A stretch of DNA of 64,000 nucleotides, taken from positions 4,526,001 to 4,590,000 of the forward strand of contig NC_089433.1 of NCBI RefSeq assembly GCF_026210795.1. Reading direction: 5' to 3'. The notes under the pieces are model-generated. The model searched no databases. It saw only the letters and a program-made list of their open reading frames with translations, and was not told the DNA's origin. Shown piece after piece: positions 6,124 to 64,000 of the stretch. The DNA is from Rhizophagus irregularis. Lineage: Eukaryota. The translations under genes and the position numbers were made by a program. Numbering within the stretch: the stretch's first letter is position 1; each line of letters opens with the position of its first letter.

Positions 6124-9100
6124 AAACAAGCTTTTCTATTTTTTAAAAAAAATTTCAAAATTAATACTATATATAATAATTAAGTATTAATGTGATAACA
6201 TCAGATATACTAAAAAAAGTAACTCACCATTATTTTGTATTTCAGTTTTTATCTCTGCAACTTTACACAATGAATTTTGGACTGTAGAATTTATGTCTGG
6301 TAAAGGTGACCTATTATTAAATTAATCACTATCATATTAGCTACATTAATATCTAACTTAATTATTCCTATTTATAATTCAAATTAATACCATTGAGCGT
6401 AATTAATATCAAGTTCAATTTCTCTTGAACTATACTCTAAGAAATATAAGAAATAAGAAATATATAACAATAAGTTTCAATTGAATTCTTAAATTATGTT
6501 TTGTACAATTTAACACATACCTTGTTTTATTGGAAACATTTCATTTAATGGTCTACTAGTATAAATCGCATTTGGGCATTGAATATTATTCACTGAATTC
6601 TGAGTAGTAGAATTTAATTCTGATAAAGATGACCTAAATATAAATATTTTTAAATTATTAATTGCATTAATGTCTGTTTTAATTATTTTGTAATTACATA
6701 TTAATACCGTTTAACATTGTTAATATCAAACTCAAGATCTTTTGAAATATACTCTAAAATATAGAAAATGTAGGATAAATTTTGTATATTATTAATGCTT
6801 AAAAATAATTATAACGTTAAGTATTATAAATAAGATAAAAAAATTAATACCTTGTTTCTTATTAAAAGTTGATGATGATAAACTAATAGATAATGACTCT
6901 GAGTCAGAGATTAAAGGATTTAATAATCTGCTAGTATAAATAGCTCCAGGATGAGAGTTTACGGCAAATCTAGGATCAAGTTTGTTTATCTTTATTAATC
7001 CCAATCGTATTTTTTCAGCTTGATTAAATTCATCATCTTCCATATTTACAGCTTGATTAATATGTGAATGTAAAATATTTTTTATTGCACATCTCCATAA
7101 AGCAATGGTTTTACGAATTTCTTCTATACGAGGTCTTTTTAAAGGATCAGAATCCCAACATTTTTTCATTAAATTACTAAAACATTTAGGAGTATCATCT
7201 GTGATTTCAGGTCGTTTTCCATCAATAATTTTATAAATAAGATCAATGTCATGGTCAAAATCAGCAAAAGGTTTACAACCTATCGTTAATTCCCACATAA
7301 TTATACCAAAACTATAAATATCTGATTCTTTTGAAAATTTGTTACCATCAAATATTTCTGGAGCGATATAAGGTATTACTCCATATATTTCATTATTTGA
7401 TGAAGTAACATTTGCAGGCTGTGATAATCCTAAATCTCCAATGTGCCATTTTTCATCAACTAATAATATATTTCCACTATGTAAATCTCTATGTATAAAA
7501 TTCTCTTTATGAATGCAATCAACTCTAAAAATAAAGTAAACAACTTTGATAGTTAGCCAACCTAATATTAATTGACGAGCACAAATTAAATAAATATAAT
7601 AATCACCCCCTTGAAATTTCCAGTAAAATAGTTAATTTATCTTTCCATGTAATATTTTTAAAATTGTTTTGTAAATAATTATGCAAATCTCCTCCATCTG
7701 CATATTGCATTATTATCATATGATCTTTTGTATTAGGATCTTGTGTAATACCATAATATTTAATAATATGTTCAAATCTATTATGATATTGAATAAATGA
7801 TTTTAACTAACATAAATTATAAGGTAGTTATTGGTTAATTTATTAAATAATAGAAATAAAAGATTAACTTTTTATATATTTACCTCATTAATAAAATATT
7901 TACTGATATTCTGTGATTTCAAAAATTTTTTTACAGCAACAATTTTTCCATTAGGTGATGAATTTATTTTCCAAACTGCTTTATAAATTATACCAAATCC
8001 TCCCTCTGCAATTCTTTTAAAATCTTTAGTTTTGGAATATTCAATCACTTTTATATTTTTCCGACTCGTCTCAATTCTATTTTTAATAAAATCATATATT
8101 TTTAATGGGTCATTGTCTTTATAAGTATTATTCATAAATTTAGAAATTTCATCATTAGTATCAATAGTAGAATTAAGAATTTCATCTATATTATGATTTC
8201 CATTGATACTAATAGGTTTCACTTTTTTGCATTTTATACATTGAGATTGGTTTGTAAATCCAAAAATAATATTTGTTGTTAAACAATATCTACATCCATT
8301 ATAAATTATAAAGCAATGTGAACACCATTTTTGACTGTCAGATTTATATTTTAACTTCTGCCTACAAACTATACAATCACTAAAAGTATCCCACCAAGGT
8401 AAATAAAGTATTGGAATATTTTTTTTGGTTAAGGTTGATTCTGTATATCCAGAAGAAACTGAATAGCAATCCAAACACATGAAAGAAATTTGGTGATTAA
8501 TTAATTTTCCACACTTACAACTTTCACTTTGAATTACCTTACTTTGTTCATTTATATCAAATGAATGATGTGTAATAATCTGTTTAAAGTATGAAATTTC
8601 AGAACAAATAATGCACCATTCTTGTATATTTTTTGTACAAACCCCCAAATTTCTCAGTTTATCATGTTCAGTACATTGAGTATTACTTGTGAATATATGT
8701 ACATCTACCGTATTTTGAGTTGTAAACTTTGCAAACTTAATGTACCAATGTAAGCAATATTTGCAATATTTTTGTTTAAACAGAAGTGTTAATGAATATT
8801 CATTTCTACATTGATGACATATATTCTCATTATTATTAAAAGGAATGAATATGATTGGAATAGAAAAATTTTCTTTACTTTCTAAATTTGAATGGGAAAT
8901 ATATTTTAGGTCAATATAATTAAGCTTACTTATAAATCCATATAATTTTAATAAGTTAGAATTTTTATCATTAACATATTTAACAATCCGATCGTGATTA
9001 ACAGCATTCATTTTTGTAGAAACAATAAAATTTTCCATAATATTTTTAGTATCAATAGTTATAAATGATCTTCTTTTACATTTTTTACATTTAGATTGAT

Positions 9101-10649
9101 TTGTAAATCCAAAAACAATATTCGTTGTTAAGCAATATCTACATCCAATATAAATTGTAAAACAATTTGAACACCATTTTTGACAATCATCTGATGCCTC
9201 AGAGGGTATATCATTTAAGATATGTTTACAAACAATACACTGCTCAATATTATACCACAATGATAAATAAAGAATTAAAATAACTTTTTCAGTTAAAGTA
9301 GATTCTATCCATTCAAAAGAGATTAAATAACATTTTGAACACAAACTAAACTCAGTATTGATTGATAAATTTTGCCGACCACATAGTGTACAATCCTTTA
9401 CATATTTAATTATTTCATTTTGTCTTTCATAATAATAATTCATATCAAATGAATATTTTGTAACTATTTGCTTAAAATATAAAATCTCAGAACAGTTCAT
9501 ACACCATTCTTGAATATTTTGTGTATATGATTCAATATTTTTTGATTCATGTTTAATACAATGAGAATTACTAGAATTATTTATATGCACATCTAAACAT
9601 ACATTTTTGTCACTTAAGTCCTTGTGATACCAATACAAACAATATTTGCAATATTTTTGTTCAAATAAGATTGTTAAAGAATAATTAAGTCCACAATAGT
9701 TACACCTATCCATATTATTACTAAAGGAAATAAATCGAATTTGTCCATTTTCTTTAATAGGATAAGAACGATTATCCGGATTTTGGTATTGTTTGGATAA
9801 TTTGATATTAGACATATACCTATATACTGTATTCACCAAATCTGATTCTTGTTTAATATTATTCATCCGATTAACAAGATTATTCATTTTAATAATATCA
9901 AAATTGTCTAAATTATACTCAATGCATGTAACGTTGATATTAATAACTCTTTTACATTTTCTACATTTAGATTGTTTTGTAATTCCAAAAATAATATTTG
10001 TTGTCAAACAATATCTACACCCTGTGTAAATTACATAACAATGTGAACACCATTTTTGACAGTCAGATTTATATTCTAAATTCATTTTACAAGCCAAAGT
10101 ACAAATACTTGAATTATCCCACCAAGGTAAATAAACAATTGGAATAAGTTTTTTGTCCAAAGTTGATTCTATCCATTCAGAAGAAGTAAAATAGCAATTT
10201 GGACATAAATCAAATAAATTATTGTAATCTTTCTTATATTCACATAATTTACATTTAGTTTCTTTAACTATATTCCATTTATTTTTATTCATTTCATTAT
10301 TTTCAAGAAAATTAAAGTGATCAAATAATATTATGTCTTTTGTAATTATTTGCTTAAAACATAAAATATTAGAATAACCATTGCACCATTCTTGAATAGT
10401 TTGTGTATCTTGAACTTTATTTCTTATGACATCCAAATATATATTGTTGTCAGTCAGTTTCTTAGCATAATCAAATAAGCAATTTTCACAAAATCTTTGA
10501 CAAAATAGTGTCTGAGAATAAAAACTTTTACAGTAAGCACAAACAAACGTATCGTTATCGAAAGGAATGAACAAAATTGGCACAGGACTGGATTTTAATC
10601 TTGGTGTACGATTGAAAGAGTTTTTATCGTTAGTACTTATAAGTTCCAT
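6041..10649 (-). CDS. Tyrosine-kinase-like protein kinase with a triplicated Cys-rich N-terminal region
   Basis: Exon 1 10649-7884 ends in AEGGFG...VAVKK. Exons 7806-7607 and 7524-6851 carry HRDLHSGNIL, GDLG, PYIAPE and DIYSFG. Small 3' exons lie at ~6754-6708, 6633-6521, 6436-6391, 6311-6227; the last exon runs from 6135 to TGA at 6043-6041. Confidence 0.85.
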
Positions 10650-11314
10650 GATATAGTTTATTTTATTGAATAATGAAGGAAGAAAATTTTGAAAAATTAA
10701 AAATTATGAAGATATTTATAATAGAATTTCGGAAAAATATCTCCGTAAAGAATTCCTCCTCAGAATTCCATGATGTATCAGGTATTTAAATAAGGAAATG
10801 ATCTGCAGTAAGTAAGAATTTTTTTTTGCCGATTATTTTTGAATACTGTGAATACTGTAAATAATTTTTATTTCTGACAATTTAATTTAAATTATTGCAA
10901 GAGATTATCATAATCATGTGTTAATCATATTACGCTCATTAATTTTATTATGATATTAAGTGAATTATTTACATTTCATAGTTAAATTTCTCGAAATGCA
11001 TTATAAATCAAAAATCCAGGATGTCGATCATCCGGACTGAAGATAGTTTTTGAACGTAGCTTAATGCCGTAATATACCTAGTAAATTTATTAATTATGAG
11101 GCGTAGTATTATATTTAGAATTAGTGTATAAATTTTAGTATTTAAAATTGTATGACGTTACAAATGCGTCCTACGGATTTGTTTATAGGTGAAGATCAAT
11201 GATCGACATATTGAATAAGATCCAAAAAATAACGTATAACTTGAAATTATTGAACGGGAACTATTGAGATATGAAAAGATACAAAAAGGGATTAAATTTG
11301 ACTTGATAAAATTT

Positions 11315-14823: not shown

Positions 14824-15209
14824 TTAAGTATATGCCGATCATTTTCAAGTTGGTTTTAATGAAAAATAAAAGTGATATTTAAAACTATCTTTGCTGTTCT
14901 TTGTCATTCTAAGTAAATTTGCAAAGTAGCTAAACATAGTCTTAATGACTTTTAAAAATTTATATATTTATTATGTAATAAGAAAATTTTCTCTATTTTG
15001 TGATTTTTGTTACGTAACAATGATTGACATGCAAAATTTGTTTTGTCATACATGCAATATTTGTGATCAACATTTTGTATACAATGCATTTTGAATAAAT
15101 ATTATTACCATATTTATCTTTACTAATAGGGCGTTTAATATAAATAATAAAAAAAAAGAAAAAAAGTTATTTCTTTATCTTCCCCAATTAAGAAGAATTT
15201 GATATAGTA

Positions 15210-18200
15210 ATGGATCAATGTATCGACAAAGGTAATTATATAGCAGAATATATAATATAAAATTAGAAGTTAATAGGTTATCTTATAATTAAATAAAATT
15301 AATAATAACAGATAATGAAATTAATTATTATTTTTATTATATTCTTATGTAACTAAATAATTTATTTAATGATTAATAATACCATAGATTGTAAGTTATC
15401 AGTTACTTAAATTTTTAGTTTTTTTACTTTATTTATATTCAAATAACTAAATACTTTGTTTAAATAATTTTTTAATACTACAGCTAGTAAGTTACAATAC
15501 TTAATAATATTGTATTTAATATTACATTTATTTATTAATATTTTAATATAACTTAACTAATTATATTTTTAATTTAAATAAATAGATTGTAAGTGATATT
15601 TTAATTTATAGTAAATAGTATTTTTCTATTATATTTATATCTAACTAATTAATAATTGATAATACTACAGGGTGTAAGCTATATGATATCTATATTTCTA
15701 TATTATATAGTAATTTAAGCTAACTCAATTCTTTATTTAAAAATTATTTTGCAATTTCTTTTAGTGGGTAAGTTATTTATTTAATTCTATTATTACTTAT
15801 TGCTATAATAAACTAACTAAATTCTTTATTTAATAGATGGTAAGTTATAAATTAATTAACTAATTCTATTATTACTTATGGACATATATTTACATATAAT
15901 TTAAACTAACTAAATTAAAAATTATTTAAATAATATAGGATGTAAGTTATTTATTCTATTATTTATTGTTATAAGATTTGCATATAATTTAAACCAACTA
16001 AATTCTTTATTTAAAAATTATTTAAATAATATAGGGAGTAAGTTATTTATTTAATTCTATTATTACTTATTGTTATAATATTTACATATAATTTAAACTA
16101 ACTAAATTCTTTATTTAAAAATTATTTTAATAATATAGGTAGTAAGTTATTTATTTAATACTATTATTACTTATTGTTATAATATCTACATATAATTTAA
16201 ACTAACTAAATTCTTTATTTAAAAAATTATTTTATAGAAGGTAAATTAATTATTTAATTCTATTATTACTTATTGTTATACTAATATTTACATATATTTA
16301 AACTAACTAAATTCCTTATTTAAAAAATTTCTTTTAGCTAGTAAGTTATAAGTTATTTATTCAATTCTACTATTACTTATTGTTGTAATATTTAAATATA
16401 ATTCATATTAACTAAATTCTTTATTCAAAAAAATTATTTTGTAATTTCTTTTAGTGGGTAAGTTGTTACTTATTATTATAATATTTACATATAATTTAAA
16501 CTAACTAAATTTTTTATTTAATAGATCGTAAGTTATAAGTTATTTATTTAATTCCATTATTACATATTGTTATAATATTTACATATAATTTTAACTAAAT
16601 TCTTTATTTATAGCTCGTAAGTTATAAGTCATTTATTTATTTCCATTATTACTTATTTTTATAATATTTACGCATAATTTAAACTAACTAAATTCTTTAT
16701 TTAATAGATCGTAAGTTATAAGCCATTTATTTAATTCTATTATTACTTACTATTTTTATAATATTTACATATAATTTAAACTAATTAAATTCTTTATTTG
16801 GAAAATTATTTTGTGATTCTATTAGTTAGTAAGTTATAAGTTATTTGTTTAATTCTATTATTACTAATTGTTATAATATTTATATATAATTTAAATTAAC
16901 TAAATTCTTTATTTAAAAAATTATTTTGTAATTTCCTTTAGTGGGTAAGTTATTTATGTAATTCTATTATTACTTAATTGTTATAATACTTACATGTAAT
17001 TTAAACTAACTAAATTCTTTATTTACAAAATTATTTAAATAATATAGAGTGTAAGTTATTTACTTAATTCTATTATTACTTATTGTTGTAATAATTACAT
17101 ATAATTTAAACTAACTAAATTTTTATTTAATAGCCCGTAAGTTATAAGTTATTTGTTTAATTCTATTACTACTTGTTTTTATAATATTTATATATAATTT
17201 AGCTAATTAAATTCTTTATTTAAAAATTATTTTGTGATTTTTTTTAGTTAGTAAGTTATAAGTTATTTACTTAATTCTATTATTATTTATTATAATATTT
17301 ACATATAATTTAAACTAACTAAATAAAAATTATTTAAATAATACAGGGTGTAAGTTATTTATTTGATTCTATTATTACTTATGGTTATAATATTTACATA
17401 TATAATTTAAACTAACTAAATTATTTAATAGATCGTAAGTTATAAGTTATTTACTTAATTCTATCATTACTTATTGTTATAATATTTACTTATAATTTAA
17501 ACTGACTAAATTCTTTATTTAAAAAATTAACTAAATAATATAGGGTGTAAGTTGTTTATTTAATTATATTATTACTTATAATTACATATAATTGTAACTA
17601 ACTAAATTCTTTATTTAAAAAATTATTTAAATAATATAGGGTGTAAGTTATTTATTTAATTCTATCATTACTTATTTTTATAATATTTTAAACTAACTAA
17701 ATTTCTTATTTAATAGGTCGTAAGTTATAAGTTATTTTTAATTCCATTATTACTTATCGTTGTAATATTTATATAAAATTTAAACTGGCTAAATTTTTTA
17801 TTTTAATAGATAGTAAGTTATAAGTTGTTTATTTAATTCTATTATTGTTATAATATTTACATATAATTTAAACTAATTAAATTCTTTATTGAAAAAATTA
17901 CTATTTATATAGAGTGTAAGTTATTTACTAAATTCTATTATTATTTATTGTTGTAATATTTATATAATTAAACTAACTAAATTCTTTATTATTTTGTAAC
18001 TTTTTTTTAGTGGGTAAGTTATTTATTTAATTCTATTATTACTTATTGTCATAATATTTACATATAATTTAAACTAACTAAATTCTTTATTTAATTTGTA
18101 ATTTCTTTTAGCTGGTAAGTTATTTATTTAATCTATTATTATTACTTATTGTTATAATATTTACATATAATTTAAACTGACTAAATTTTTTGTTTAAAAA

Positions 18201-20640
18201 ATTATTTTGTAATTTCTTTTAGTTGGTAAGCTGTTTATCTAATTTTATTATTACTTATTGTTATAAATATTTACATATAATTTAAATTTAACTAAATTCT
18301 TTATTTAATAGATGGTAAGTTATTTACTTAATTATATTATTACTCATTGTTATATTATTTACGAATAATTTAAACTAACTAAATTCTTTATTTAAAAAAT
18401 TATCTAAATAATATAGAGAGTAAGTTATTTATTTAATTCTATTATTGTCATAGTAATATTTACATATAATTTAAACTTAATTAAATTCTTATTTAAAAAA
18501 TTACTTAAATAATATAGAAAGTAAGTTATTTATTTAGCTCTATTATTACTTATTGTTATAATATTTATATATAGTTTAAACTAACTAAATTCTTTATTTA
18601 AATAATATAGAAAGTAAGTTACTTATTTAATTCTATTATTACTTATTGTTATAATATTTACATATAATTTAAACTAATAAATTTCTTTAAAATTATTTAA
18701 ATAATATAGAGAGTAAGTTATTTATTTAATTCTATTATTACATATTGTTATAATATTTACATTTTAAATTAACTAAATTCTTTATTTAATAGATCGTAAG
18801 TTATAGGTTATTTATTTTATTCTATTATTACTTACAATATTTATATAATTTAACTAAATTTTTTATTTAAAAAATATAGCTCGTAAGTTATTTGTTTAAT
18901 TCTATTATTACTTATTGTTATAATATTTACATAATATCTAAACTAACTAAATTCTTTATTTAACAAATTATTTAAATAATGTAGCTCGTAAGTTATTTAT
19001 TTAATTCTATTATTACTTATTGTTATAATGTTTACATATAATTTTAGACTAACTAAATTCTTTATTTAAATAATATATATAGCTCGTAAGTTATTTATTT
19101 AATTCTATTATTACTCATTGTTATAATAATTACATATAATTTAAACTAACTAAATTCTTTATTTAAAAAAATTATTTAAATAACATAGCTTGTAAGTTAT
19201 TTGTTATTTCTATTGTTATATATTTTATATAATATTTATTTGTTAACTATTCTTTTATTTAAAAATTTCTATTACTTTAGTTGGTAAGTTGTGAAATATA
19301 ACTTATTATTATAAATATTTATACAAAAACTAAGATATATATTATCTTAAATTCCTATTTAAATTTTAGAGTAAGTGTTAATTTTAATCTTAAATATTAG
19401 TTTAAATTTTATTATAAACTTTAATATAATTTTAATTATTTAAATTTATAGATTTGGAAAAAGTGGAAATGAAATCATAGATGAAATTATTCTTGAAAAA
19501 AAGTTAAGATGGATTCCTTATAATAAATTTAATAATATTGAATTTCTTGATGAAGGAGGATTTGGTATTATATACAAAGCTATTTGGTTAAATAATAATG
19601 GAAATAAAGAAGTAATTCTTAAATGTCACAAGAATTTAAATGATAATTTAGTTGAATTTTTAAATGAAGTATGATGTTATGTTATTTTTTTAATTTAAAT
19701 TATAATTTATTTATATTAATATGTTTATTATTTTCTATAGTGGAAATATCATGGAAGCTGTTTAGATTCAAATGATATTATTCATTTTTATGGATTTACA
19801 AAAAATCCAGATACTTTGGAATATTTGGTAGTAATGGATTATGCAAACAAAGGTAATTTAAGAAGTAACTTAACAAGAATAATTGAAAGTGGTTGGGATC
19901 AAAAAGTTTTTATGCTGTATGGAATTATTTATGGACTTGGCTTTATACATGAACAAAATCTCATTCATTGTGATTTTCATGATGGCAATATTCTAAATCA
20001 TAATGAGGATAAAATTTATATTAGTGATTTGGGATTATGTCAACCCATAAAATCATCTTTAGAAGAGTCTAAAATTTGTGGCGTTATACCATTTATGGCA
20101 CCTGAAGTTTTAAGAGGCAAACCTTATACTCCAGCTAGCGATATATACAGTTTTTCTATGATTATGTGGGAATTTACATCTGGAGTACCACCATTTAATG
20201 ATAGAGCACATGATATTCAACTTAGTTTAAGTATTTGTAGAGGTGAACGTCCTGAAATTATTGAAAATACTCCACAATGCTATGTAGATTTGATGAAAAA
20301 ATGTTGGGATGGTGATCCATTAAAAAGGCCATCTTCTGGGAAAATTTTAGAAACTATTGAAAAATGGGTTTTATATCCTAAAGACAAGAAAATTGAAGAT
20401 ATTAACGAAGAATTAAAATGCAATATTATGGAATTTATAAATGCACCAATTGGGCATAATAATCTTGCTACTGAATCTCACTCACAAGCTTGCCATACAA
20501 GTCGCTTACTTAATTTTACTAGTAAACAATTGAATGAAATTCTTGAAAGTAAAAATTCACAAACTTATTATGCAACCCATTCTTCTACTGGTATAACTGA
20601 AGATTTGGATGATTGTATAATTGAAGATACAAGTAATTAG
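15210..20640 (+). CDS. Tyrosine-kinase-like kinase A with N-terminus encoded by 41 three-nt micro-exons plus one 1-nt exon
   Basis: Exon 1 15210-15231 (MDQCIDK+G); micro-exons 15388 to 19283; 1-nt exon 19370; exon 19452-19668 (FGKSGN..WIPY..EGGFG..VILK); exon 19741-20640 (HCDFHDGNIL, DLG, PFMAPE, DIYSFS). The kinase part is certain; the micro-exon part is inferred from splice signals and frame consistency. Confidence 0.85.
15232..19451 (+). repeat. Tandem array of ~70-120-bp homologous introns (array A)
   Basis: Unit consensus GTAAGTTATTTATTTAATTCTATTATTACTTATTGTTATAATATTTACATATAATTTAAACTAACTAAATTCTTTATTTAAAAAATTATTT...TAG, followed by a variable triplet. Confidence 0.95.
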
Positions 20641-24115: not shown

Positions 24116-25010
24116 GTCCGATCATATTTTTGAAGAGTCATCTGGATTCAATCCGAATCTTTACAGCCAATCCGGATGATAATCCAGATCAATGGATTTA
24201 TCCTTTATTTAGGATCCATCCGGATTAATCCCATCCGATTTTAAGGATCCATCCTTTATTTCGGATCTATTCGGATTTATCCTAATCCGAAATTTAATGG
24301 ATGATCCGTATAAATGAATTTATTAATTAATTACTCCTATTATTTATAAAGTTTTCAAGTTTTCAACAAATAAATAATAAAATTGTTAATATATATAATA
24401 TAATTGAATTCATTGAATTAAAGAAATAGTAAAATATTTTATTAGACTAACAAGAAAAAATACATTATGAAACTTAATGAAAAATTTATTCTAATAAAAT
24501 TTCCTGAGTTTCACCATCCCATTCTTTTGCAAAAACTTCCATTGAACGAATATTTCTTTTTAAAAATAATATTTGTCCTACCAAATTTGTATCCAAATGC
24601 GTTCTTTTTACTGTAATTAGATTACTAGCATGCGAGAATAGTCTTTCACTTGACACGGAAGTCGCAGGAATTCCAAGATATTTGCGGGAAATTTGTGATA
24701 ATTTTGGAAAATTTTTGCACGAATTCGCCACCAATCTAGTGGATTTTCCTCCTCCAATGCAACCGGCATTGCTAAATAATTACTGACTTCATCAGTGGCT
24801 GCAAGTGATTTATCTTTTTTACTTTTAGTTTGACGGCGTTGACGGTATCCTTTCTGTGAGCGCAATGATGATTCTGCATCCGAAGAAGGCATAGTTATAT
24901 TTGATGGCTCTACTGCAGGTGAGTGCGGTGTTGAGTTATTGGATTCCATTTCATTAAACTCATCACGAAGCTTTCGAATTATTTTTTCCTTTTCATCATC
25001 TACGATTTCT
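24116..25010 (-). pseudogene. hAT transposase C-terminal (dimerisation domain) remnant with subterminal ATCCG repeats
   Basis: Frameshifted ORFs 24617-24949 (ENPLDWWR) and 24486-24734 (FPKLSQISRKYLGIPATSVSSERLFSHA); ATCCGG/ATCCGA repeats at 24116-24310. Confidence 0.85.
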
Positions 25011-26159
25011 TCCTTAACTGATTGGACTGATCAATTCCATCATACCATGTCCCAAAACAGGGCAAAGTCTTCTCATTCTCTGACTAAACGTCAATCTAGA
25101 GACATTCTTAAATCTGAAATGAATAGATTAGTCGCAGCTCACCCTAATATTTTAATTGTTGACAACCAATATCATTGTAATTCTCGTATAGTTTGCAATG
25201 TTAGGGGTAATTTAGTCCCCTTTGATCCTTATACATCAGATGACATGAAAAGTCTTGAAATGTGTTCTTTAAAACGTGATGTAAACATCAATTTGAATCT
25301 TTCTTTGCATCATAACATATCGAAATGGTCCGTCTAGATCTTTCCTTTGCTTATGATTCCAAGCAGGTGGGTCTGTCTAATAGTTCTAATACTAATTAAT
25401 TTTCTTTTTTTACAGTATAGAATTTATTACTTTTTCTTTTTGTTTTTTTTTGGAATCCTTTTATACATAGATTTATCTATTTCTGATACTTGTTTTTTTT
25501 TACAAGATAGTTTTTTTTACAATTAGAATAGTGTGAATCACTCCACTTATGACAGTATTTACAGGTGGCGACCTTGTGTCGAAAGAAAAATACGGATCGA
25601 GAAATCTTTTTTTTTTGGTTGTTGGGGTGGATGCCCTATTCCTTTGTTGGTCGTAGCTTAGGAAAAGACTAGGTTCTTTATATAATTAGAAGTTTGGGTC
25701 CGTTAGGTAATGGATGATAGTAAGAAGTAGGATAAAACCCTTTAGAGGGTATATGTTCTGTTTAATTGTCTGTCCAACTTCACATAAAATAAATAAATAA
25801 ATAAATAAATGATAGAATAAGAGAAATAGGTTGCGTGGAGAATATGCGAAGTTATAAATATAAGACGGTCAAGGCTAAACTTTGCTTCACAATAATCTAT
25901 GAAGAAATTTATAAGCGAGGGCCAATATAACAATTAAAAAGAACGGTCGTCAATATTTTTTCCGAATGTTTGATTCTAAGTTAACGTTCAGGCGTAAATA
26001 AAAAATTTTGTTGGCAAGAATGCGCAAATTTCTACAGGAAATGAGATAACAGATGGTGAAATTGTGAAAGAACATAACAAAAAATACGGAGCCTTTTTCG
26101 GAAAAGTTATTAGGATCACAAATTAAAATATATCTTAATATACTAACAACAAAAATGAT

Positions 26160-39101: not shown

Positions 39102-41159
39102 TTAATTAGTATAGTTCTTATTCCATTGAGCTGTTTTATCATTATCTCGGAAATCTAAAATCATTATAATTATTTAATTATTTTAATTTCAATTATAACA
39201 ATAATTATGAAATTTACTTACCATTATTTGAATTTACTTTTAAATTTCCAATTACACTGGATAATTTTTTAGTATTATCATCAAAATCTATTAAAAGATG
39301 ATAAATCGGGATTTAATTTTATTTTAATTTCAATTGTAATAATAATTATAAAATTTACTTACCATTATTTGAATTTATTTTTAAGTTTTCAATTACACTG
39401 GGTAATTTTTTAGTATTATCATCAAAATCTATTAAAAGATGATAAATCGAGATTTTAATTCAAAGTGTTCAAAGTTAATTTTACAATCATGTTAAATTAT
39501 ATTACACTTACCATTAGGAATACTAAAGAAATAATTACTATGGAATTCTTATAAAAAAAACATATCTTAGAGATATTTATATAATAATATACATTTAAAA
39601 ATTAGTTAAATTTATAGTAATACCTTTTTGTCCTGTTTATTTATTTAAAAAAGAAAAAGATAATTATTAATTGAAATTTTTTAAAATAATAATATAGTCA
39701 TTACATAAACATACCTTCACTTGAATTCGGGAATTGATAAATATTACTGGTATTACCTCGGCTTGTAGGGATATTTAATTGCAATTGCGAACTATATGAT
39801 TCTTGGTTGCGTTTCAAAGCTTCATCTAGATAATATGATGCACTTATCTTTCTTATCTTTATCCAAAGATCATTTATATTAGGTCTTTTTTTCGGATCAA
39901 CATTCCAACATTGCTCCATCAAATTTTTATATTCTATAGGAATATGTGATATTATTTTTGGTCTCATTCCATTTATTATACTCATTGCAAGATAATAATC
40001 ATGCTTATAATTACTATACGGAGATTGCCCAAATGCAATTTCCCACATTAGCATCGCAATACTATAAATATCAGATGTATAATTATATTCTTTTTTAATT
40101 ATAACTTCGGGTGCTATATATGGTAAATTTCCATAGATGGATCTTAATGGCTCATTTACTGGACCACAAAATCCAAAATCACATATAAACCATAAATCTA
40201 AGTATTTTGAATATAATATGTTTCCAGAATGTAAATCTCTATGGATTTTATTTTCTCTGTGAATACTATCCAGAGCATTTATTATATCAACGGTAATTTT
40301 AATTCTTTCTTTCCAAGTAAGATTATCATGGTTTTTTATTAAATATGTTCTTAAATCCAAATCCATTTGATGCATTACAAGGAAATAGTTTTGAGTTCGT
40401 GGATCTTGCGTTAGACCATGACATCGAACAATTTCAATCCATTTATTACTCATAGTTAAATGTGATTTTGCCTTTTAATTTAAAAATATTTCAAAAAAAA
40501 AAAAGATTTTATTAGAATAAATTAAATAAATTATATTTAATAATTTTTGTAATTTATAAATTACATACCTCATCAAACCAAGTTCTATTTGCACTTATAA
40601 TATTTTCTAACTTTTTAAGGATCACTTTATGCGTACCTATCCTTTTTAATTGATTTTCTTTAATATCCCATTCGTTATATTGTCCATCTATCCATTCAGC
40701 TAAATAAATTTCGGAGAATCCACCTTTAGTTAAATATTCAATTTTTTGTAAATTATTGTACGGGATCCATTCAACTATCATACTTGGATGAAACGTTTCA
40801 GATTGACATTTCTTTATTAAATCATCAATATCATCATTCCCTGATGTCCAATCTAAAGAGTTTATTTCCAAATAGTTTCGAACGCAATGTTCACAATATA
40901 AAGTTGCTAAACATTCTTGTTCGCAATTTTCGCACGTCCTTTTTTCTCCTTCACCATAAAGAATTTTATTATAATCATAATCTTCATTTAATAATTGCTC
41001 CACTTCTAATCTTTCATTTTTCGTAAGATATTTATTGGTATTAATGGTTTGTATTCTGAATTCATGTCGTTTGGTAATGTTATCGTGGAAATTATAATCA
41101 GTTAACGCGCATACTTTGTTAAATGCATTTATAGCATTAACATTATAAATATAGCCCAT
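39102..41159 (-). CDS. Tyrosine-kinase-like protein kinase with small duplicated 3' exons
   Basis: Exon 1 41159-~40569 (CxxC pairs, WTSGN, KGGFSEIY, VILK); exon 2 ~40472-39715 (HRDLHSGNIL, DFG, PYIAPE); 9-nt exon 39632-39624; exon 39547-39512; two near-identical exons ~39427-39362 and ~39287-39222; last exon ends in TAA at 39104-39102. Confidence 0.85.
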
Positions 41160-41674
41160 AACTAATTTGTTGAATTACTTATTTTCGTAACTCAAAAAAA
41201 AAGCGAAAAGCAAGAAAAAGGATTTCCGTTTTATTTACGTTTATTTATACTTAATTTCATCGGATTTAAAACTCCGTCATTCAAATGGATTATTAACATA
41301 TAATTTTAATACAGTAGTATTTTAAAATATAATTATTTGATAATCTTAATCTCATGAGTCATGGTCGATAAAAGGAAAATCTCATAATGTACTACTGTGA
41401 ATTAAAATTAAAAGATAGAAAGAGTATATTTTTATTTTTGTGTCATTCATGGAAATATTCTTTATTTGTTTAAAAATGAATGCGAACGTTTAAAGTAGTT
41501 AGATTCATGTTGATCAAAACAAACAACTTTTGCTTTTAGTATGATCTACAACACGTTTTTCATATGCGTTTGTAACGAGAGTTACGTACTGATAGGGGTA
41601 TTGTTTATTTTTCGTGTCCATTGTTACAAAATGTTACAATAATAGTATTCACAGTTTTTCGAAAACAATAGGTA

Positions 41675-53069: not shown

Positions 53070-54326
53070 TTAATTATTATTTGTATTTAAATATCTCCTC
53101 TGATGATTATTCCATAATAAATCACATATTGCATTTCTTATAGCATTACCTTCTGATGTTTCATTAACATTTGTTTCACTATTTACATCAGTTCCTGTAT
53201 CATGATATTGTTCTTCTGGTGGTAAAAAATCGCGTCTTTCTTCACAAATATTATGGAGTATACAACAAGTAGTTATCATATGTGGTATTATTTCAAATGA
53301 AACTTCTAAACTATGAAGAAGACATCTCCATCTACCCTTTAATAAACCAAAAGCTTGTTCTACTTTGATTCTTGTTTGTGAATGTTTACAATTGAAATAT
53401 GTTTGTTTTTGAATTAATCCTCTACCTATATCTTTATAAGGAACTATTAACCAACTAAGATTCGGATATCCTCCATCACCTAATATGTATTTATTATTAA
53501 AAGTTGTTACTAAATTATTAAACTTATTATATAGATTAGAATTTACTAAAATTCTACTATCATGTGTAGAACCTGGCCAACCAACACATATATCTAAAAA
53601 ACTTGTTTTATGGTCAACTACTGCTTGTAAAACAATTGAATAAAATCCTTTTCTATTAAAATAATCTACAGGAAATAGATGAGGTGCTTTAATTGGTATA
53701 TGACTACCATCAATAGCTCCAATAACATTAGGAATTCTTCCAGTACCTTTGAATCCATTTGTAATTTCATTAATTTCTGATTCTGTATTTGGAAAAACAA
53801 TTTTTTCCGCTAGAAATTTTGTAACTATTACATTAATAAAATCTCTTAATGCATAACTAAAAGTTGATTCTCCCATTCCAAACCTATTACCTATAGACCT
53901 AAAACATTCTCCAGTAGCAAGAAACCATAATGATGCACCAACCTTTTGTTCCCATGCAAGTCCAACTATACCAGGTCCTGTAATTTCTCTTCTTAAATGT
54001 GGTATTATTTCACAGCATAACCATTCGAATGTAGACCTGGTTAACCTAAAATGTCTTTTAAATTCAAAATCTTGCATATTTAAACATATTTCATTAAACC
54101 AATACTGAGATATTGATCTATTTAATCTTCTTAAATTGATGCACTCATTAATTTCTATTCTATTAAGTTGTAAATATAGCAAGTTTAAAGGTAAAATGTT
54201 AAAATTTTCTTCCTCTTCTTCTTGTTCAGTTTGATAAGTAGCAATTAAATTTTCTTCAAATTCATTATATTTAATAAGTATAATAATTATTAATATACAA
54301 ATTGAAATTTGGAATTCCCTGTTCAT
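53070..54326 (-). CDS. Harbinger (HARBI1-like, DDE_Tnp_4) transposase
   Basis: Open 418-aa ORF with FKRHFRL, GAIDGSHI, YFNRKGFYS, GWPGSTHDS, LGDGGYP, VEQAFGLLKGRWR, CCILHNIC. Confidence 0.95.
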   Translation of the reverse strand: MNREFQISICILIIIILIKYNEFEENLIATYQTEQEEEEENFNILPLNLLYLQLNRIEINECINLRRLNRSISQYWFNEICLNMQDFEFKRHFRLTRSTFEWLCCEIIPHLRREITGPGIVGLAWEQKVGASLWFLATGECFRSIGNRFGMGESTFSYALRDFINVIVTKFLAEKIVFPNTESEINEITNGFKGTGRIPNVIGAIDGSHIPIKAPHLFPVDYFNRKGFYSIVLQAVVDHKTSFLDICVGWPGSTHDSRILVNSNLYNKFNNLVTTFNNKYILGDGGYPNLSWLIVPYKDIGRGLIQKQTYFNCKHSQTRIKVEQAFGLLKGRWRCLLHSLEVSFEIIPHMITTCCILHNICEERRDFLPPEEQYHDTGTDVNSETNVNETSEGNAIRNAICDLLWNNHQRRYLNTNNN

Positions 54327-54550
54327 TACTGAGAAAATAATATGTAATTATAAAAATTTATGTAAAATTTTAAAAGAAAGTACGAAAAAAAAAATTTTTA
54401 AAGCATAACGGTAAATCATTAATCTAATGTAACACAAAAATTTGTGAATCAAGATTGAAACGTTAATCTCAATTTCAAGCTGATCTCAATCCCAATCTCA
54501 ATCCCAATCTCAATCACAGGTTTTGTGAAGACCCCCATTGTGCGGTAATA

Positions 54551-58138: not shown

Positions 58139-61100
58139 ATGGGTCAATGTATTGGTAAAGGTAAAAATCGTATATATAGTATGAACATTTGATACAATAA
58201 GAATTTTAAAATTTTTAACAAATTGACAATATAATAAAACTAGTTTCTGGTAGTGTTAATAAAAAAAATGGCTCTGAAGAATCTGAAGGAAGTACCGAGG
58301 AATATGAAGGTATATTAAACAAGCTGAAATATTAAAATACTTATCTATAAATAAACCTATATATAATATATAACTAACTAAATTATATAAAATCATATTA
58401 AATAATTTAGCTCGTAAGTTAATAGGTTGTTTTATAATTAAATAATAACGGAATTACTTATTATTTTTACTATATTCTATGTAACTAAATATACTATAGT
58501 TTGTAAGTTATCAGTTATTTAAATTTTTAGTTTTTTACTTTATTTATATTTACATAATATTCAAATAACTAATAAATTCTTTGTTTTAAATAACTAATTA
58601 ATTATATTACAGCTGGTAAGTTATAATATTATATTTAATATTATATTTATTTATTAATATTTTACTATAATTTAACTAATTATACTCCTAATTTAAATAA
58701 ATAGATTGTAAGTAATATATTCAATTTATAGTAAATACCTTTCTATTATATTTATATCAACTAATTAAGAATTAATAATAATTCAGGGTGTAAGTTATAT
58801 GATGTCTATATTTCTATTATTTATATAATTTAAGCTAAATTCTTTATTTAAAAAATTATTTGTAATTTCTTTTAGTTGGTAAGTTATTTATTTAATTCTA
58901 TTTTACTTATTGTTATAATATTTACATATAATATAAACTAACAAAATCCTTTATTTAAAAAATTATTTTAATAATATAGGGAGTGAGTTATTTATTTAAT
59001 TCTATTATTACTACTTCTTTACAGAAACTTCAAGAATGGCTTAATGCGCAGTAACTGCATATATGTAATTTCTTTACAATTGCATAATGTGGTCACTATG
59101 TATTTATAACGCAGTTACCACGCATTAAGCCATCGCTACGATCTTGAAGTTTCTGTAAAGTTATTGTTATAATATTTACATATATTTAAACTAACTAAAT
59201 TCTTATTTAAAAAATTATTTAAATAATATAGAGAGTGAGTTATTTATTTAATTCTATTATTACTTATTATAATAATATTTACATATAATTTAAACTAACT
59301 AAATTCTTTATTTAAAAAATTATTATATAGATGGTAAGTTATTTATTTAATTCTATTATTAATCATTGTAATAATATTTACATATAATTTAAATTAACTA
59401 AATTTTTTATTTAAAAAAATTATTTAAATAACATAGCTCGTAAGTTATTTATTTAATTCTATTATTACTTATCATTATATAATTTAAGCTAAACTAACTA
59501 AATTCTTTATAAATTATTTTGTAATTCTTTTAGATTGTAAGTTATAATTTATTTATTTAATTCTATTATTACTTATTGTTATAATATTTATATATAATTT
59601 GAACTAACTAAATTTTTATTTAAAAAATTATTTAAATAATATAGGGAGTAAGCTATTTATTTAATTATACTATTCTTATTGTTATAATATTTACATATAA
59701 TCAAACTAAACCAACTAAATTCTTTATTAAAAAATTATTTTGTAATTTCTTTTAGATTGTAAGTCATAATTATTTATTTAATTCTATTATTACCTATCAT
59801 AATAATATTTACATATAATTTAAATAAATTCTTTATTTAAAAATTATTTTTGTAATTTCTTATACTAGTTGGTAAGTTATTTATTTAATTCTGTTATTAT
59901 TTATTGTTAAAATATTTACATATAATTTAAACTAACTAAATTCTTTATTTAAAAAATTATTTTATAGATGGTAAGTTATTTATTTAATTCTATTATTACT
60001 TATTATTATAATATTTACATATTATATAAACTACTAACTAAATTCTATATTTAAAAAATTATTTAAATAATATAGGGTGTAAGTTATTATTTATTTAATT
60101 TTATTATTACTTATTGTTATAATATTTACATATAATTTAAACTATCTAAATTCTTTATTTAAAAAATTATTTAAATAATTTAGGGTGTAAGTTATTTATT
60201 TAATTCTATTATTACTTATTGTTATACTAAATTCTTTATTTAAAACTTATTTTGTAACTTTTTTTAGTTAGTAAGCTATTTGATTAATTCTATTATTATT
60301 TGTTGTTATAATATTTGCATATAATTTAAACTAACTAAATACTTTATTTAAAAAATTATTTTATAGATGGTAAGTTCATATTTAATATCTATTATTATTA
60401 TTTGTTATAATATTTACGTATTATTTAACTAACTAACTAAATTTATTATTTAATAGATCGTAGGTTATAAGTTATTATTTAATTCTATTATTACATATTA
60501 TTATAATATTTACATATAATTTAAATTAACTAAATTCTTTGTTTAATAGATCGTAAGTTATAACTTATAAGTTATTTATTTAGTTCTATTATTACTCATT
60601 GTAATAATATTTGCATATAATTTAAACTAACAATTCTTTATTTAAATTATATAAATATATAGGGTGTAAGTTATTTATTTAATTCTATTATTACTTATTG
60701 TTATACTAAATTCTTTATTTAAAACTTATTTTGTAACTTTTTTTAGTTAGTAAGCTATTTGATTAATTCTATTATTATTTGTTGTTATAATATTTGCATA
60801 TAATTTAAACTAACTAAATACTTTATTTAAAAAATTATTTTATAGATGGTAAGTTCATATTTAATATCTATTATTATTATTTGTTATAATATTTACGTAT
60901 TATTTAACTAACTAACTAAATTTATTATTTAATAGATCGTAAGTTATAAGTTATTATTTAATTCTATTATTACATATTATTATAATATTTACATATAATT
61001 TAAATTAACTAAATTCTTTGTTTAATAGATCGTAAGTTATAACTTATAAGTTATTTATTTAGTTCTATTATTACTCATTGTAATAATATTTGCATATAAT

Positions 61101-63999
61101 TTAAACTAACAATTCTTTATTTAAATTATATAAATATATAGGGTGTAAGTTATTTATTTAATTCTATTATTACATATTGTTATAATATTTACATACATTT
61201 TAAACTATCTTAATTCTTTATTTAAAAAATTATTTTGTAATTTCTTTTAGTTGGTAAGCTATTTATTTAATTCTATCATTGCTTATTGTTATAATATTTA
61301 CATATAATTTAAACTAACTAAATTCTTCACTTGAAAAATTATTTAAATAATATAGGGTGTAAGTTATTTATTTAATTCTATTATTACTTTATATTGTTAT
61401 AATATTTACATTTGTTTAAACTAACTAAATTCTTTATTTAATAGATCGTAAGTTATAAATTATTTATTGCTTACATTATTACTTATTGTTATTATTATAA
61501 TATTTACATATAATTTAAATTAACTAAATTCTTTATTAAAAAATCATTTAAATAATATAGAGAGTAAGTTATTTATTTAAATCTATTATAGTATTATTAC
61601 TTATTATTATAATATTTACATATAATTTAAACTAACAAATCCTTTATTTAAAAAATTATTTTAATAATATAGGGAGTGAGTTATTTATTTAATTCTATTA
61701 TTACTACTTATGATATTTACATATATTTAAACTAACTAAATTCTTATTTAAAAAATTATTTAAATAATATAGAGAGTGAGTTATTTATTTAATTTTATTA
61801 TTACTTATTATAATAATATTTACATATAATTTAAACTAACTAAATTCTTTATTTAAAAAATTATTATATAGATGGTAAGTTATTTATTTAATTCTATTAT
61901 TAATCATTGTAATAATATTTACATTTAATTTAAATTAACTAAATTCTTTATTTAAAAAAATTATTTAAATAACATAGCTCGTAAGTTATTTATTTAATTC
62001 TATTATTACTTAGTATCATTATAATATTTACATATAATTTAAGCTAAACTAACTAAATTCTTTATTTAAAAAATTATTTTGTAATTTCCTTTAGATTGTA
62101 AGTTATAATTTACTATTTATTTAATTCTATTATTACTTATTATAATAATATTTACATATAATTTAAACTAACTAAATTCTTTATTTAAAAAAATTATTTT
62201 ATAGATGGTAAGTTATTTATTTAATTCTATTATTACTTATTGTTATAATATTTACATTTAATTGAAACTAACTATTTAATTTCCTTTAGATGGTAAGTTA
62301 TTTATTTAATTCTATTATTACTTATTGTGATAATATTTACATATAATTTAAACTAACTAAATTTTTATTTAAAAATTATTTAATAATATAGCTTGTAAGT
62401 TATTTGTAATTTTATTGTTATATATTTTATATTTATTTGTTAACTGTATTCTTTCATTTAAAATTTCTATTACTTTAGTTGGTAAGTTGTGAAATATAGC
62501 TTATTATTATTATATATATTTGTACAAGAACTAAGACATATATTATCTTAAATTCCAATTTAAATTTTAGAGTGAGTGTTAATTTTAATCTTAAATTTTG
62601 TGTCAATTTTATTATGAACTTTAATTATTTAAATTTATAGATTTGGAAAAAGTGGAAATACAATTATAGATAAATTTATCCTTGAAAAAAGATTAAAATG
62701 GATTCCTTATAATAAATTTAAAAATGTTGAATATCTTAATGAAGGAGGATTTGGTACTATATACAAAGCTATTTGGTTAAAAAATAATGAAGATAATAAA
62801 GAAGTAATTCTTAAATGTCATAATAATTTAAATGAAAATTTAAATGAATTTTTAAATGAAGTATGATAGTATATTATTTATTTTTTTCAATTTGAATTAT
62901 AATTTACTTATATTAATATATTATTATTTTTTATAGTGGAAATATCATGAAAGATGTTTAGATTCAATTGAAATTATTTATTTTTATGGATTTACAAAAG
63001 ATCCAGATACTTTAAAATATATGGTAGTAATAGATTATGCAAACAAAGGTAATTTAAGAGGAAACTTAACAAGAATAATCAAAAATAATTGGGATCAAAA
63101 ATTATATATGTTGTGTGAAATTATTTCTGGACTTAATAGTATACATGAACAAAATCTTATTCATTGTGATTTTCATGATGGTAATATTTTAAATCATAAT
63201 GAGGATAAAATTTATGTTAGTGATTTAGGATTATGTCAGCCTGTAAAATCATTTTTGAAAGAGTATAATATTTATGGTGTTGTACCATTTATGGCACCTG
63301 AAGTTTTAAGAGGCAAATCTTATACTCCAGCTAGTGATATATATAGTTTTTCTATGATTATGTGGGAATTTACATCTGGTACGCCACCATTTAACAATAG
63401 AGCACACGATATTCAACTTAGTTTAAGTATTTGTAAAGGTGAACGTCCTGAAATTATTGAAAATACTCCACAATGTTATGTAGATTTAATGAAAAAATGT
63501 TGGGATGAAGATCCATTAAACAGGCCATCTTCTAAGGAAGTTTTAAAAACTATTATAAAATGGATTGGTCTTCCTTCTAACAAGAAAATTAAAGATATTG
63601 ATAAAGAATTAAAATGTAATATTATGGAATTTATAAATGCACCAATTGGGCATAACATTCTTACTACTGAATCTCATCCACAGGCTTGTTATACAAGTCG
63701 CATACTTGATTTTACTAGTAAAAAATTGAATGAAATTCTTGAAAGTGAAGATTTGAATAGTTGTATAATTAAAGATTTGAAGTCATTAGGTATGTAATAT
63801 AGTATATATAAAAATTAATCTTGCAAATCATTTTTGTGAAATTAATTTATTATTTAATATTAAAACAGATAAAAATACTAGTAAAAAATTGAATGAAATT
63901 CTTGAAAGTGAAGATTCACAAACTTATTATGCAAGCCATTCTTCTACTGGCATAACTGAAGAGTTGGATGATTGTATAATCAAAGATACAAGTAATTAG
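58139..63999 (+). CDS. Tyrosine-kinase-like kinase B with N-terminus encoded by 40 three-nt micro-exons plus one 1-nt exon
   Basis: Exon 1 58139-58160 (MGQCIGK+G); exon 2 58244-58309 (66 nt); micro-exons 58411 to 62481; 1-nt exon 62571; exons 62641-62860, 62937-63789, 63869-63999 (TAG). Close paralogue of kinase A. Confidence 0.85.
58310..62640 (+). repeat. Tandem array of homologous introns (array B)
   Basis: Same unit consensus as array A; every unit is GT(A/G)AG...CTAAC/T...AG followed by a triplet. Confidence 0.95.
59017..59160. mobile_element. 144-bp MITE inside an array-B intron
   Basis: Perfect 19-bp TIR CTTTACAGAAACTTCAAGA, continued by ATGGCTTAATGCG..TAACTGC; TT on both flanks; absent from the duplicated unit at ~61676-61772. 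Confidence 0.85.
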
Positions 64000-64000
64000 G

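What the first reader, a model, noticed from the sequence alone, without database searches (positions are those of the whole stretch)
15210..19451. Array A: an apparent satellite that is 41 consecutive 3-nt exons encoding a kinase N-terminus one codon at a time
Seen: each ~100-bp unit has a donor (GTAAGT), a fungal-type branch point (ACTAAC/CTAAT) and a YAG acceptor, and exactly 3 nt lie between each AG and the next GT. Triplets from 15388: ATT CTA ATT GGT TGG ATG GAT GGA GTA AAG CTA TGG ATC CTC ATC TTA TGG AGT CCC TTA GGT ATC GGT GGT GTC ATA AGT TGG CTG TTG ATG AGA AAA AAA AGA ATC CTC CTC CTC CTT TTG (last at 19281). Exon 1 ends in phase 1 (AAA G|gt). Joining gives MDQCIDK-DSNWLDGWSKAMDPHLMESLRYRWCHKLAVDEKKKNPPPPF-E-FGKSGNEIIDE..., stop-free and in frame with the kinase. 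Unit length drifts from ~70 to 120 bp while the splice signals and the 3-nt gap stay fixed, which a neutral satellite should not do. Inference: every exon preserves frame and every codon straddles a junction, so skipping one exon deletes a residue and recodes its neighbour. That allows very large combinatorial diversity. Schistosoma micro-exon genes and Dscam are conceptual analogues, but I know of no described array of single-codon exons; novelty is unverified.
Basis: partly seen in the sequence, partly recalled or inferred. Interest (0 to 1): 0.97.

Follow-up and report, generated by a model that had tools for sequence, protein, structure and literature searches.

The report
Mycorrhizal kinase with single-codon exon array
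A stretch that looks like a DNA satellite in the root-symbiotic fungus Rhizophagus irregularis is 41 repeated introns separated by 3-base pieces that are likely spliced into a kinase's front end, which would let the fungus vary a possible sensing segment one amino acid at a time, much as reported for truffle immune-receptor genes.

Summary
Observation confirmed. All 41 units read AG-NNN-GT, with introns of 67-115 nt, and a second array of 40 units precedes a paralogous kinase at 58.4-62.5 kb. The organism is Rhizophagus irregularis. RNA contigs support splicing indirectly. Two of 4 runs join exon 1 to the kinase exon, and in one record the gap works out to 124 letters, exactly 41x3 plus a 1-nt exon at 19370. 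I did not see those 124 letters. A paralog contig shows three triplets and the 1-nt exon joined to the kinase exon behind a retained intron. Triplets differ at 0.66 per site against 0.12 for introns. Block duplications and linkage of triplets to their acceptor tract point to DNA-level shuffling of codon cassettes. The claim of no precedent is wrong: truffle NACHT-ankyrin genes have alternatively spliced codon-sized exons. The public gene model already of the triplets, likely in the wrong frame. Verdict: real, likely an independent origin on a kinase, new variant of a known kind.

The parts
15210..15231 (+). coding part of exon 1 (22 nt, ends in phase 1); the 5' UTR reaches at least 15194
   Evidence: RNA joint 15231->19452 with GT..AG ends in runs X5 and X9
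15388..19283 (+). array A: 41 3-nt exons separated by 40 related introns of 67-115 nt
   Evidence: 124-letter gap in X9 record 21
19370..19370 (+). 1-nt exon that sets the kinase frame
   Evidence: frame test; site kept in array B (62571) and in L001; paralog contig in X4 table 5c
19452..19668 (+). kinase N-lobe exon (217 nt)
   Evidence: laid with 0 differences in X4 record 8 and X9 record 21; like the SGN region of the sister kinase at 40554-41174, E 1e-10
19741..20640 (+). kinase domain exon to the stop codon
   Evidence: Pfam PF00069 and PF07714 above cut-off; intron 19669-19740 spliced in 4 of 4 runs; 100% identical to P0001 of R. irregularis
58139..58160 (+). paralog B exon 1, starting Met-Gly-Gln-Cys (myristoylation-like; motif recalled, not tested)
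   Evidence: alignment to exon 1 of A
58244..58309 (+). paralog B 66-nt acidic exon, phase 1 to phase 1, absent from A
   Evidence: similar acidic repeats in paralog models P0038, P0113, P0148, P0190
58411..62481 (+). array B: 40 3-nt exons, with block duplications 60184-60665/60663-61144 (481 of 482 identical) and 59232-59536/61773-62097 (301 of 325)
62571..62571 (+). paralog B 1-nt exon
62641..63797 (+). paralog B kinase exons (62641-62860 and 62937-63797)

Best explanation
This is a Rhizophagus irregularis protein-kinase gene whose front end is likely spliced together from 41 three-base exons and one single-base exon, and the repeated introns likely act as recombination handles that duplicate, delete and swap codon-sized cassettes in frame, varying a possible sensing segment next to the kinase. 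Shown by sequence: the exon-intron anatomy, a second array on a paralog, fast-diverging triplets, block duplications, and triplets inherited together with their upstream acceptor tract. Supported indirectly by RNA: inclusion of all 42 tiny exons. Inferred: each ~90-nt intron is recognised on its own and removed stepwise, so the exon grows as neighbours join and no isolated 3-nt exon has to be defined. Also inferred: the ~41-residue segment is a variable partner-binding or regulatory part, because it sits where a sister kinase has a cysteine-rich module. Alternative skipping may add variety but was not seen.
For:: joint 15231->19452 (GT..AG, 'between: not known') in X5 (depth 76, side 44) and X9 (depth 12, side 38), two studies. 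X9 record 21 places 19452 at record position 163 with 0 differences, so 163-1-38 = 124 = 41x3+1; a 5-nt last exon would give 128. X9 record 22, a paralog, gives 136 = 3n+1 under the same assumption. X4 table 5c shows an array-type intron, an acceptor, three triplets and one base joined directly to 19452. In X4 record 8 (0 differences) the 28 letters before 19452 lie neither on the intron nor, in the rows shown, on exon 1; triplet pairwise difference 0.66 per site against 0.12 in introns; GC 40% against 13%; 103 distinct gap intervals in 78 aligned introns, while all 81 units keep the 3-nt gap; triplet similarity tracks the upstream 14 nt (r 0.30, p 0.0005; also after dropping 10 duplicated units) but not the downstream 14 nt (r 0.04, p 0.12); triplet position 1 resembles codon position 2 and position 2 is C-poor and T-rich like codon position 3, as phase 1 predicts; the sister kinase shares the SGN region; its upstream cysteine motifs are read.
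Against: The 124 letters were not read, and the arithmetic assumes the exon-1 piece starts at record position 1, which the table does not show. The joint appears in only 2 of 4 runs. The X4 contig is from a paralog and could reflect a genomic copy with fused last exons. RNA runs carry depth over the array introns (up to 246 in one bin, table 2), so unspliced or retained forms, from this gene or its paralogs, are present. Among the N-termini I read none carries the phase-1 peptide; those with source names are genome annotations or metagenome gene calls, so this says little. The middle base is A in only 5% of triplets against 36% at kinase third positions, which a wobble reading does not explain. 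The 482-nt duplication could be an assembly artefact. No test of function was made.
Confidence: 0.72

Rival explanations
1. The exons are real, and their main purpose is combinatorial alternative splicing that makes many kinase isoforms from one gene, as reported for truffle nank genes.
For: All exons are symmetric; 40 of 41 single skips avoid a stop. Precedent in Tuber. Partly spliced forms exist.
Against: The only measurable own-locus record fits full inclusion and runs as one contig through the region. Donors are near-uniform strong GTAAGT sites. Contigs drop rare variants, so this is weak.
Confidence: 0.3
2. The exons are spliced, but the segment is a tolerated flexible linker: a tandem intron-plus-triplet unit expanded by unequal crossing-over and is held only by frame and splice-site selection.
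For: Unit number and peptide differ freely between A and B. No function was tested. The kinase family is highly expanded, 2,533 genes (PMC10234402 passage).
Against: Triplets diverge about five times more than the introns around them and are three times richer in GC, more than drift of a homogenised unit would give. Forty extra introns per transcript are a cost.
Confidence: 0.3
3. The triplets are read in phase 0, as the public gene models do, giving a hydrophobic, membrane-anchor-like N-terminus joined through a 5-nt exon at 19370-19374 or directly to 19741.
For: P0173 (POG71966.1) uses 37 of 41 triplets in phase 0 and P0002 uses 19 of 40. Phase 0 is stop-free in both arrays and hydrophobic, with a basic patch in A.
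Against: The RNA gap is 124, not 128, and the X4 contig shows one base, not five, before 19452. Exon 1 ends in phase 1, and RNA contigs include exon 19452-19668, which P0173 omits. A middle base of 94% T or G makes any phase-0 reading hydrophobic.
Confidence: 0.07
4. The array is a satellite, or a chain of recursive splice sites, inside one long intron, and the triplets do not reach the mRNA.
For: TRF calls it a ~100-bp tandem repeat. The letters between the joined exons were not read.
Against: Joining exon 1 straight to 19452 is out of frame. The joint is flagged as having letters between, unlike the clean 72-nt intron, and the gap equals the exon sum. No unit of 81 has lost its sites or changed its gap.
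Confidence: 0.05

Closest known systems
[quoted passage not shown] 2012, PMID 22289772; paper not held, seen only as cited in PMC9815663 and PMC4986451)
   Same: Dozens of 3-bp exons in an expanded signalling gene family of a mycorrhizal fungus.
   Different: There: NLR proteins, a C-terminal recognition domain, diversification by alternative splicing, an ascomycete. Here: a kinase, an N-terminal segment, a 1-nt frame-setting exon, a glomeromycete, and evidence for DNA-level shuffling through repeated introns. Exon phase and intron similarity in Tuber could not be compared.
Micro-exon genes (MEGs) of Schistosoma and tapeworms (passages of PMC7653826, PMC4015677)
   Same: Runs of symmetric micro-exons; meets the operational rule used in PMC7653826.
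   Different: MEGs are mostly small secreted proteins with micro-exons making up to 75% of the coding sequence and with known skipping. Here the exons are all 3 nt, about 10% of the coding sequence, and sit on a kinase.
Fungal NLR repeat arrays reshuffled by unequal crossing-over (passage of PMC9815663)
   Same: High internal similarity of repeats drives in-frame reshuffling.
   Different: There the coding repeat supplies the homology. Here the intron would supply it, so the unit moved is one codon's worth of sequence.
1-nt microexons of plant APC11 and VPS55 (passages of PMC8831610)
   Same: A conserved 1-nt exon with a GTRAGT donor that annotation misses.
   Different: Single exons, not the end of an array.

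Membership tests
Tuber nank codon-sized microexon genes | dozens of 3-bp exons | tested here: met
   41 and 40 units; inclusion supported indirectly
Tuber nank codon-sized microexon genes | NACHT-ankyrin NLR protein | tested here: not met
   Pfam finds kinase families only in the 299-aa exon and nothing in the 76-aa exon
Tuber nank codon-sized microexon genes | alternative splicing of the mini-exons | tested here: inconclusive
   one record fits full inclusion; contigs drop rare forms
Flatworm micro-exon genes | at least 7 exons, at least half under 70 nt and divisible by 3, runs of at least 4 (PMC7653826) | tested here: met
   41 of 45 coding exons, one run of 41
Flatworm micro-exon genes | micro-exons form most of the coding sequence of a small secreted protein | tested here: not met
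   123 of 1263 coding bases; kinase domain
Flatworm micro-exon genes | N-terminal signal peptide | not tested
   no predictor was run; exon 1 encodes 7 residues with no hydrophobic run
Protein kinase (PF00069/PF07714), expanded Glomeromycotina family | kinase domain above Pfam cut-off | tested here: met
   118 and 116 bits; 961 relatives at E<=1e-50, with Rhizophagus the only genus named among the best 120
Protein kinase (PF00069/PF07714), expanded Glomeromycotina family | catalytic activity | not testable with these tools
   Gly-rich loop, Lys, His-x-Asp and Asp-Leu-Gly motifs seen by eye
Neutral satellite DNA | substitutions and indels spread evenly along the unit | tested here: not met
   triplets 0.66 against introns 0.12 per site; 103 gap intervals in introns, none changing the 3-nt gap
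Recursive splicing (zero-length exons) | AG directly followed by GT, nothing retained | tested here: not met
   gap is 3 nt in 81 of 81 units; 124 letters lie between the joined exons

The most novel reading that the evidence does not exclude
Rhizophagus carries a family-wide codon-cassette system. Arrays of near-identical introns let single codons be duplicated, deleted and exchanged within and between kinase paralogs, and exon skipping multiplies the forms further. This builds a hypervariable non-self-sensing segment on membrane-tethered kinases, convergent with truffle NLRs, and gives these largely clonal, multinucleate fungi a recognition repertoire.
Probability: 0.25. Interest if true: 0.9.

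Novelty: new variant of a known kind. Interest (0 to 1): 0.72.

Why it matters
It would be a second, likely independent fungal case of codon-sized exon arrays, in another phylum and on another protein class, which suggests a recurring way to diversify signalling proteins. It gives a concrete hypothesis for why arbuscular mycorrhizal fungi keep thousands of kinases and how they vary them. It offers a natural model for how a spliceosome handles 41 consecutive 3-nt exons and a 1-nt exon. Practically, public gene models of these kinases appear to have wrong N-termini, and part of the unclassified repeat content of the genome may be coding exon arrays.

Tried and rejected
No whole genome is held for this window, so arrays could not be counted genome-wide. 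No listed run is on record as RNA; the four runs laid are treated as RNA because each joins across the 72-nt GT..AG intron. I laid 4 of 24 listed runs. The letters between exon 1 and exon 19452 remain unread. Three protein searches and the representative search turned up no transcript-derived protein with the phase-1 segment among the N-termini I read (139, 25, 25). The metagenome scan gave 2 loci, neither reaching an array; L001 keeps the 1-nt exon site. Three look-ups of earlier findings were blank. The stop-free frame was rejected as strong evidence. Column invariance in the intron alignment was uninformative because ragged ends misaligned the splice sites. No structure or complex was predicted.
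Full report
Observation. In 15200-19500, 40 of 41 GTAAG donors have an AG exactly 3 nt upstream, one has it 1 nt upstream, and one more triplet uses a GTAAAT donor. Window-wide the spacing k=3 occurs 77 times on the + strand, against 0-2 for each other spacing from 0 to 9, and 0 times on the - strand. Only 2 such sites on the + strand and 1 on the - strand lie outside the two arrays. Introns are 67-115 nt in array A, so every interval holds exactly one unit. A second array of 40 units lies before a paralogous kinase at 58411-62481.

Organism and gene. The kinase exon is 100% identical to an R. irregularis protein (P0001) and passes Pfam PF00069 and PF07714. The predicted gene has 45 coding exons: 22 nt, 41 x 3 nt, 1 nt (19370), 217 nt and 900 nt, giving 420 residues. 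Without the 1-nt exon the kinase exon is out of frame. Paralog B has the same layout plus a 66-nt acidic exon and is also open through to its kinase.

RNA evidence (4 of 24 listed runs, from 4 studies, assembled contigs only). All four runs join across the ordinary 72-nt intron, so they hold spliced RNA. Two (X5, X9) join 15231 to 19452 with GT..AG ends and the flag 'between: not known'. In X9 record 21 the exon at 19452 starts at record position 163 with no differences, and the exon-1 side is 38 letters. If that piece starts the record, 124 letters lie between, which equals 41x3+1. A paralogous record gives 136, again 3n+1, on the same assumption. In X4 a paralog contig shows an array-type intron, an acceptor, three triplets and one base joined to 19452: the last four introns are gone while the upstream one is kept. 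Limits: I did not see the 124 letters; the joint is absent from the shown rows of X2 and X4; the X4 contig could come from a genomic copy with fused exons; intronic depth is considerable; contigs cannot show rare isoforms.

Sequence evidence for exons. Over 81 units, triplets differ at 0.66 per site and introns at 0.12; GC is 40% against 13%. An alignment of 78 introns (one of 79 dropped for an insertion) has 103 distinct gap intervals, yet no unit changes its 3-nt gap. Base composition fits phase 1: triplet position 1 resembles codon position 2, and position 2 is C-poor and T-rich like codon position 3. Against this, A is depleted at the middle base (5%), which is unexplained. Stop avoidance is weak: 0 observed against 2.0 and 0.9 expected, with shuffle fractions of 0.09 and 0.34.

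How it varies. The edge introns of A and B pair as orthologs (A1-A4 with B2-B5, A40 with B39), while the middle units do not. Array B has a 482-nt five-unit duplication (481 identical) and a three-unit one (301 of 325), which repeat peptide blocks in frame. Triplet identity tracks the 14 nt upstream of the acceptor (r 0.30, p 0.0005, 67 core units; unchanged with 57 after dropping duplicated blocks) but not the 14 nt after the donor (r 0.04, p 0.12). I infer that exchanges fall in the homogenised intron body and move acceptor-plus-triplet cassettes. Because every unit adds 3 nt, any gain, loss or swap keeps the frame. Skipping at RNA level would work the same way (20 of 41 single skips recode a neighbour, 20 delete cleanly, 1 stops) but was not observed.

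Family spread. The GenBank/RefSeq model of this locus (P0173, POG71966.1) already uses 37 of the 41 triplets as exons, in phase 0 and omitting exon 19452; the model of locus B uses 19 of 40. Of 129 proteins examined, 11 have an N-terminal 14-residue window at least 12/14 made of I, L, M, G, R, W or K, against 4 for the much longer kinase bodies; two of the 11 are from R. diaphanus. This suggests, without DNA in hand, that arrays occur on many paralogs and in at least two species.

Function (inferred). Paralogs start Met-Gly-Gln-Cys/Tyr, a myristoylation-like start (motif recalled, not tested); A has Asp at position 2. The exon after the array is homologous to the SGN region of the sister kinase at 40554-41174 (E 1e-10), where the upstream part is cysteine-rich. 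The variable segment therefore sits in a slot used by another module in relatives. A sensing or partner-binding role is my best guess, helped by the truffle precedent, but a tolerated linker is nearly as likely.

Comparison. Passages in PMC9815663 and PMC4986451 state that T. melanosporum NACHT-ankyrin genes have dozens of 3-bp, codon-sized exons that are alternatively spliced (Iotti et al. 2012). The original paper is not held, so I saw only these citations. This gene works like that system in exon size but is not a member: it is a kinase, not an NLR. It meets the structural rule for flatworm micro-exon genes (passages of PMC7653826) but not their secreted, mostly micro-exon make-up (passages of PMC4015677). 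1-nt exons are known in plants (passages of PMC8831610).

Is it in print for Rhizophagus? Search listings showed no such paper. Term searches within PMC10234402, PMC8647823, PMC12155092 and PMC5658179 returned no passage on it; I saw matched passages only. Supplements were not read, and most subscription journals, including the paper behind the 2018 annotation, are not in the library, so a mention elsewhere is possible.

Verdict. New variant of a known kind; interest 0.72.

Noticed in passing
window 59003-59174: A hairpin insert with 33-nt terminal inverted repeats (85% complementary) and inner 23-nt arms sits inside an array B intron, making it 249 nt; the exons on both sides are intact. It looks like a small non-autonomous transposon.
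   Followed up: partly
window 15388-19283 and 58411-62481: The middle base of the triplets is T 63%, G 31%, A 5%, C 1%. The lack of A is unexplained; it may avoid a second AG acceptor or reflect ancestry.
   Followed up: no
window 7872-10703 (-): A 943-aa ORF with repeated cysteine-pair modules and no Pfam hit ends in a kinase N-lobe, with the kinase body at 6792-7631.
   Followed up: no
window 63720-64000: The 3' end of kinase B appears to have a duplicated short tail segment separated by an intron; many paralog models show similar repeated tails.
   Followed up: no
window 58980, 59232, 61673, 61773, 60457: Array B has four GTGAGT donors and one GTAGGT donor; the GTGAGT pairs lie at the edge of the duplicated block.
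   Followed up: no
window 56333-57354: A 177-bp tandem repeat lies about 0.8 kb upstream of locus B; a transposase-like ORF lies at 53070-54347 (-) and an hAT-like fragment near 24486-25030 (labels recalled, not tested).
   Followed up: no
window 16238: This triplet ends in AG, forming a tandem acceptor directly before a weaker GTAAAT donor: a candidate for natural skipping.
   Followed up: no
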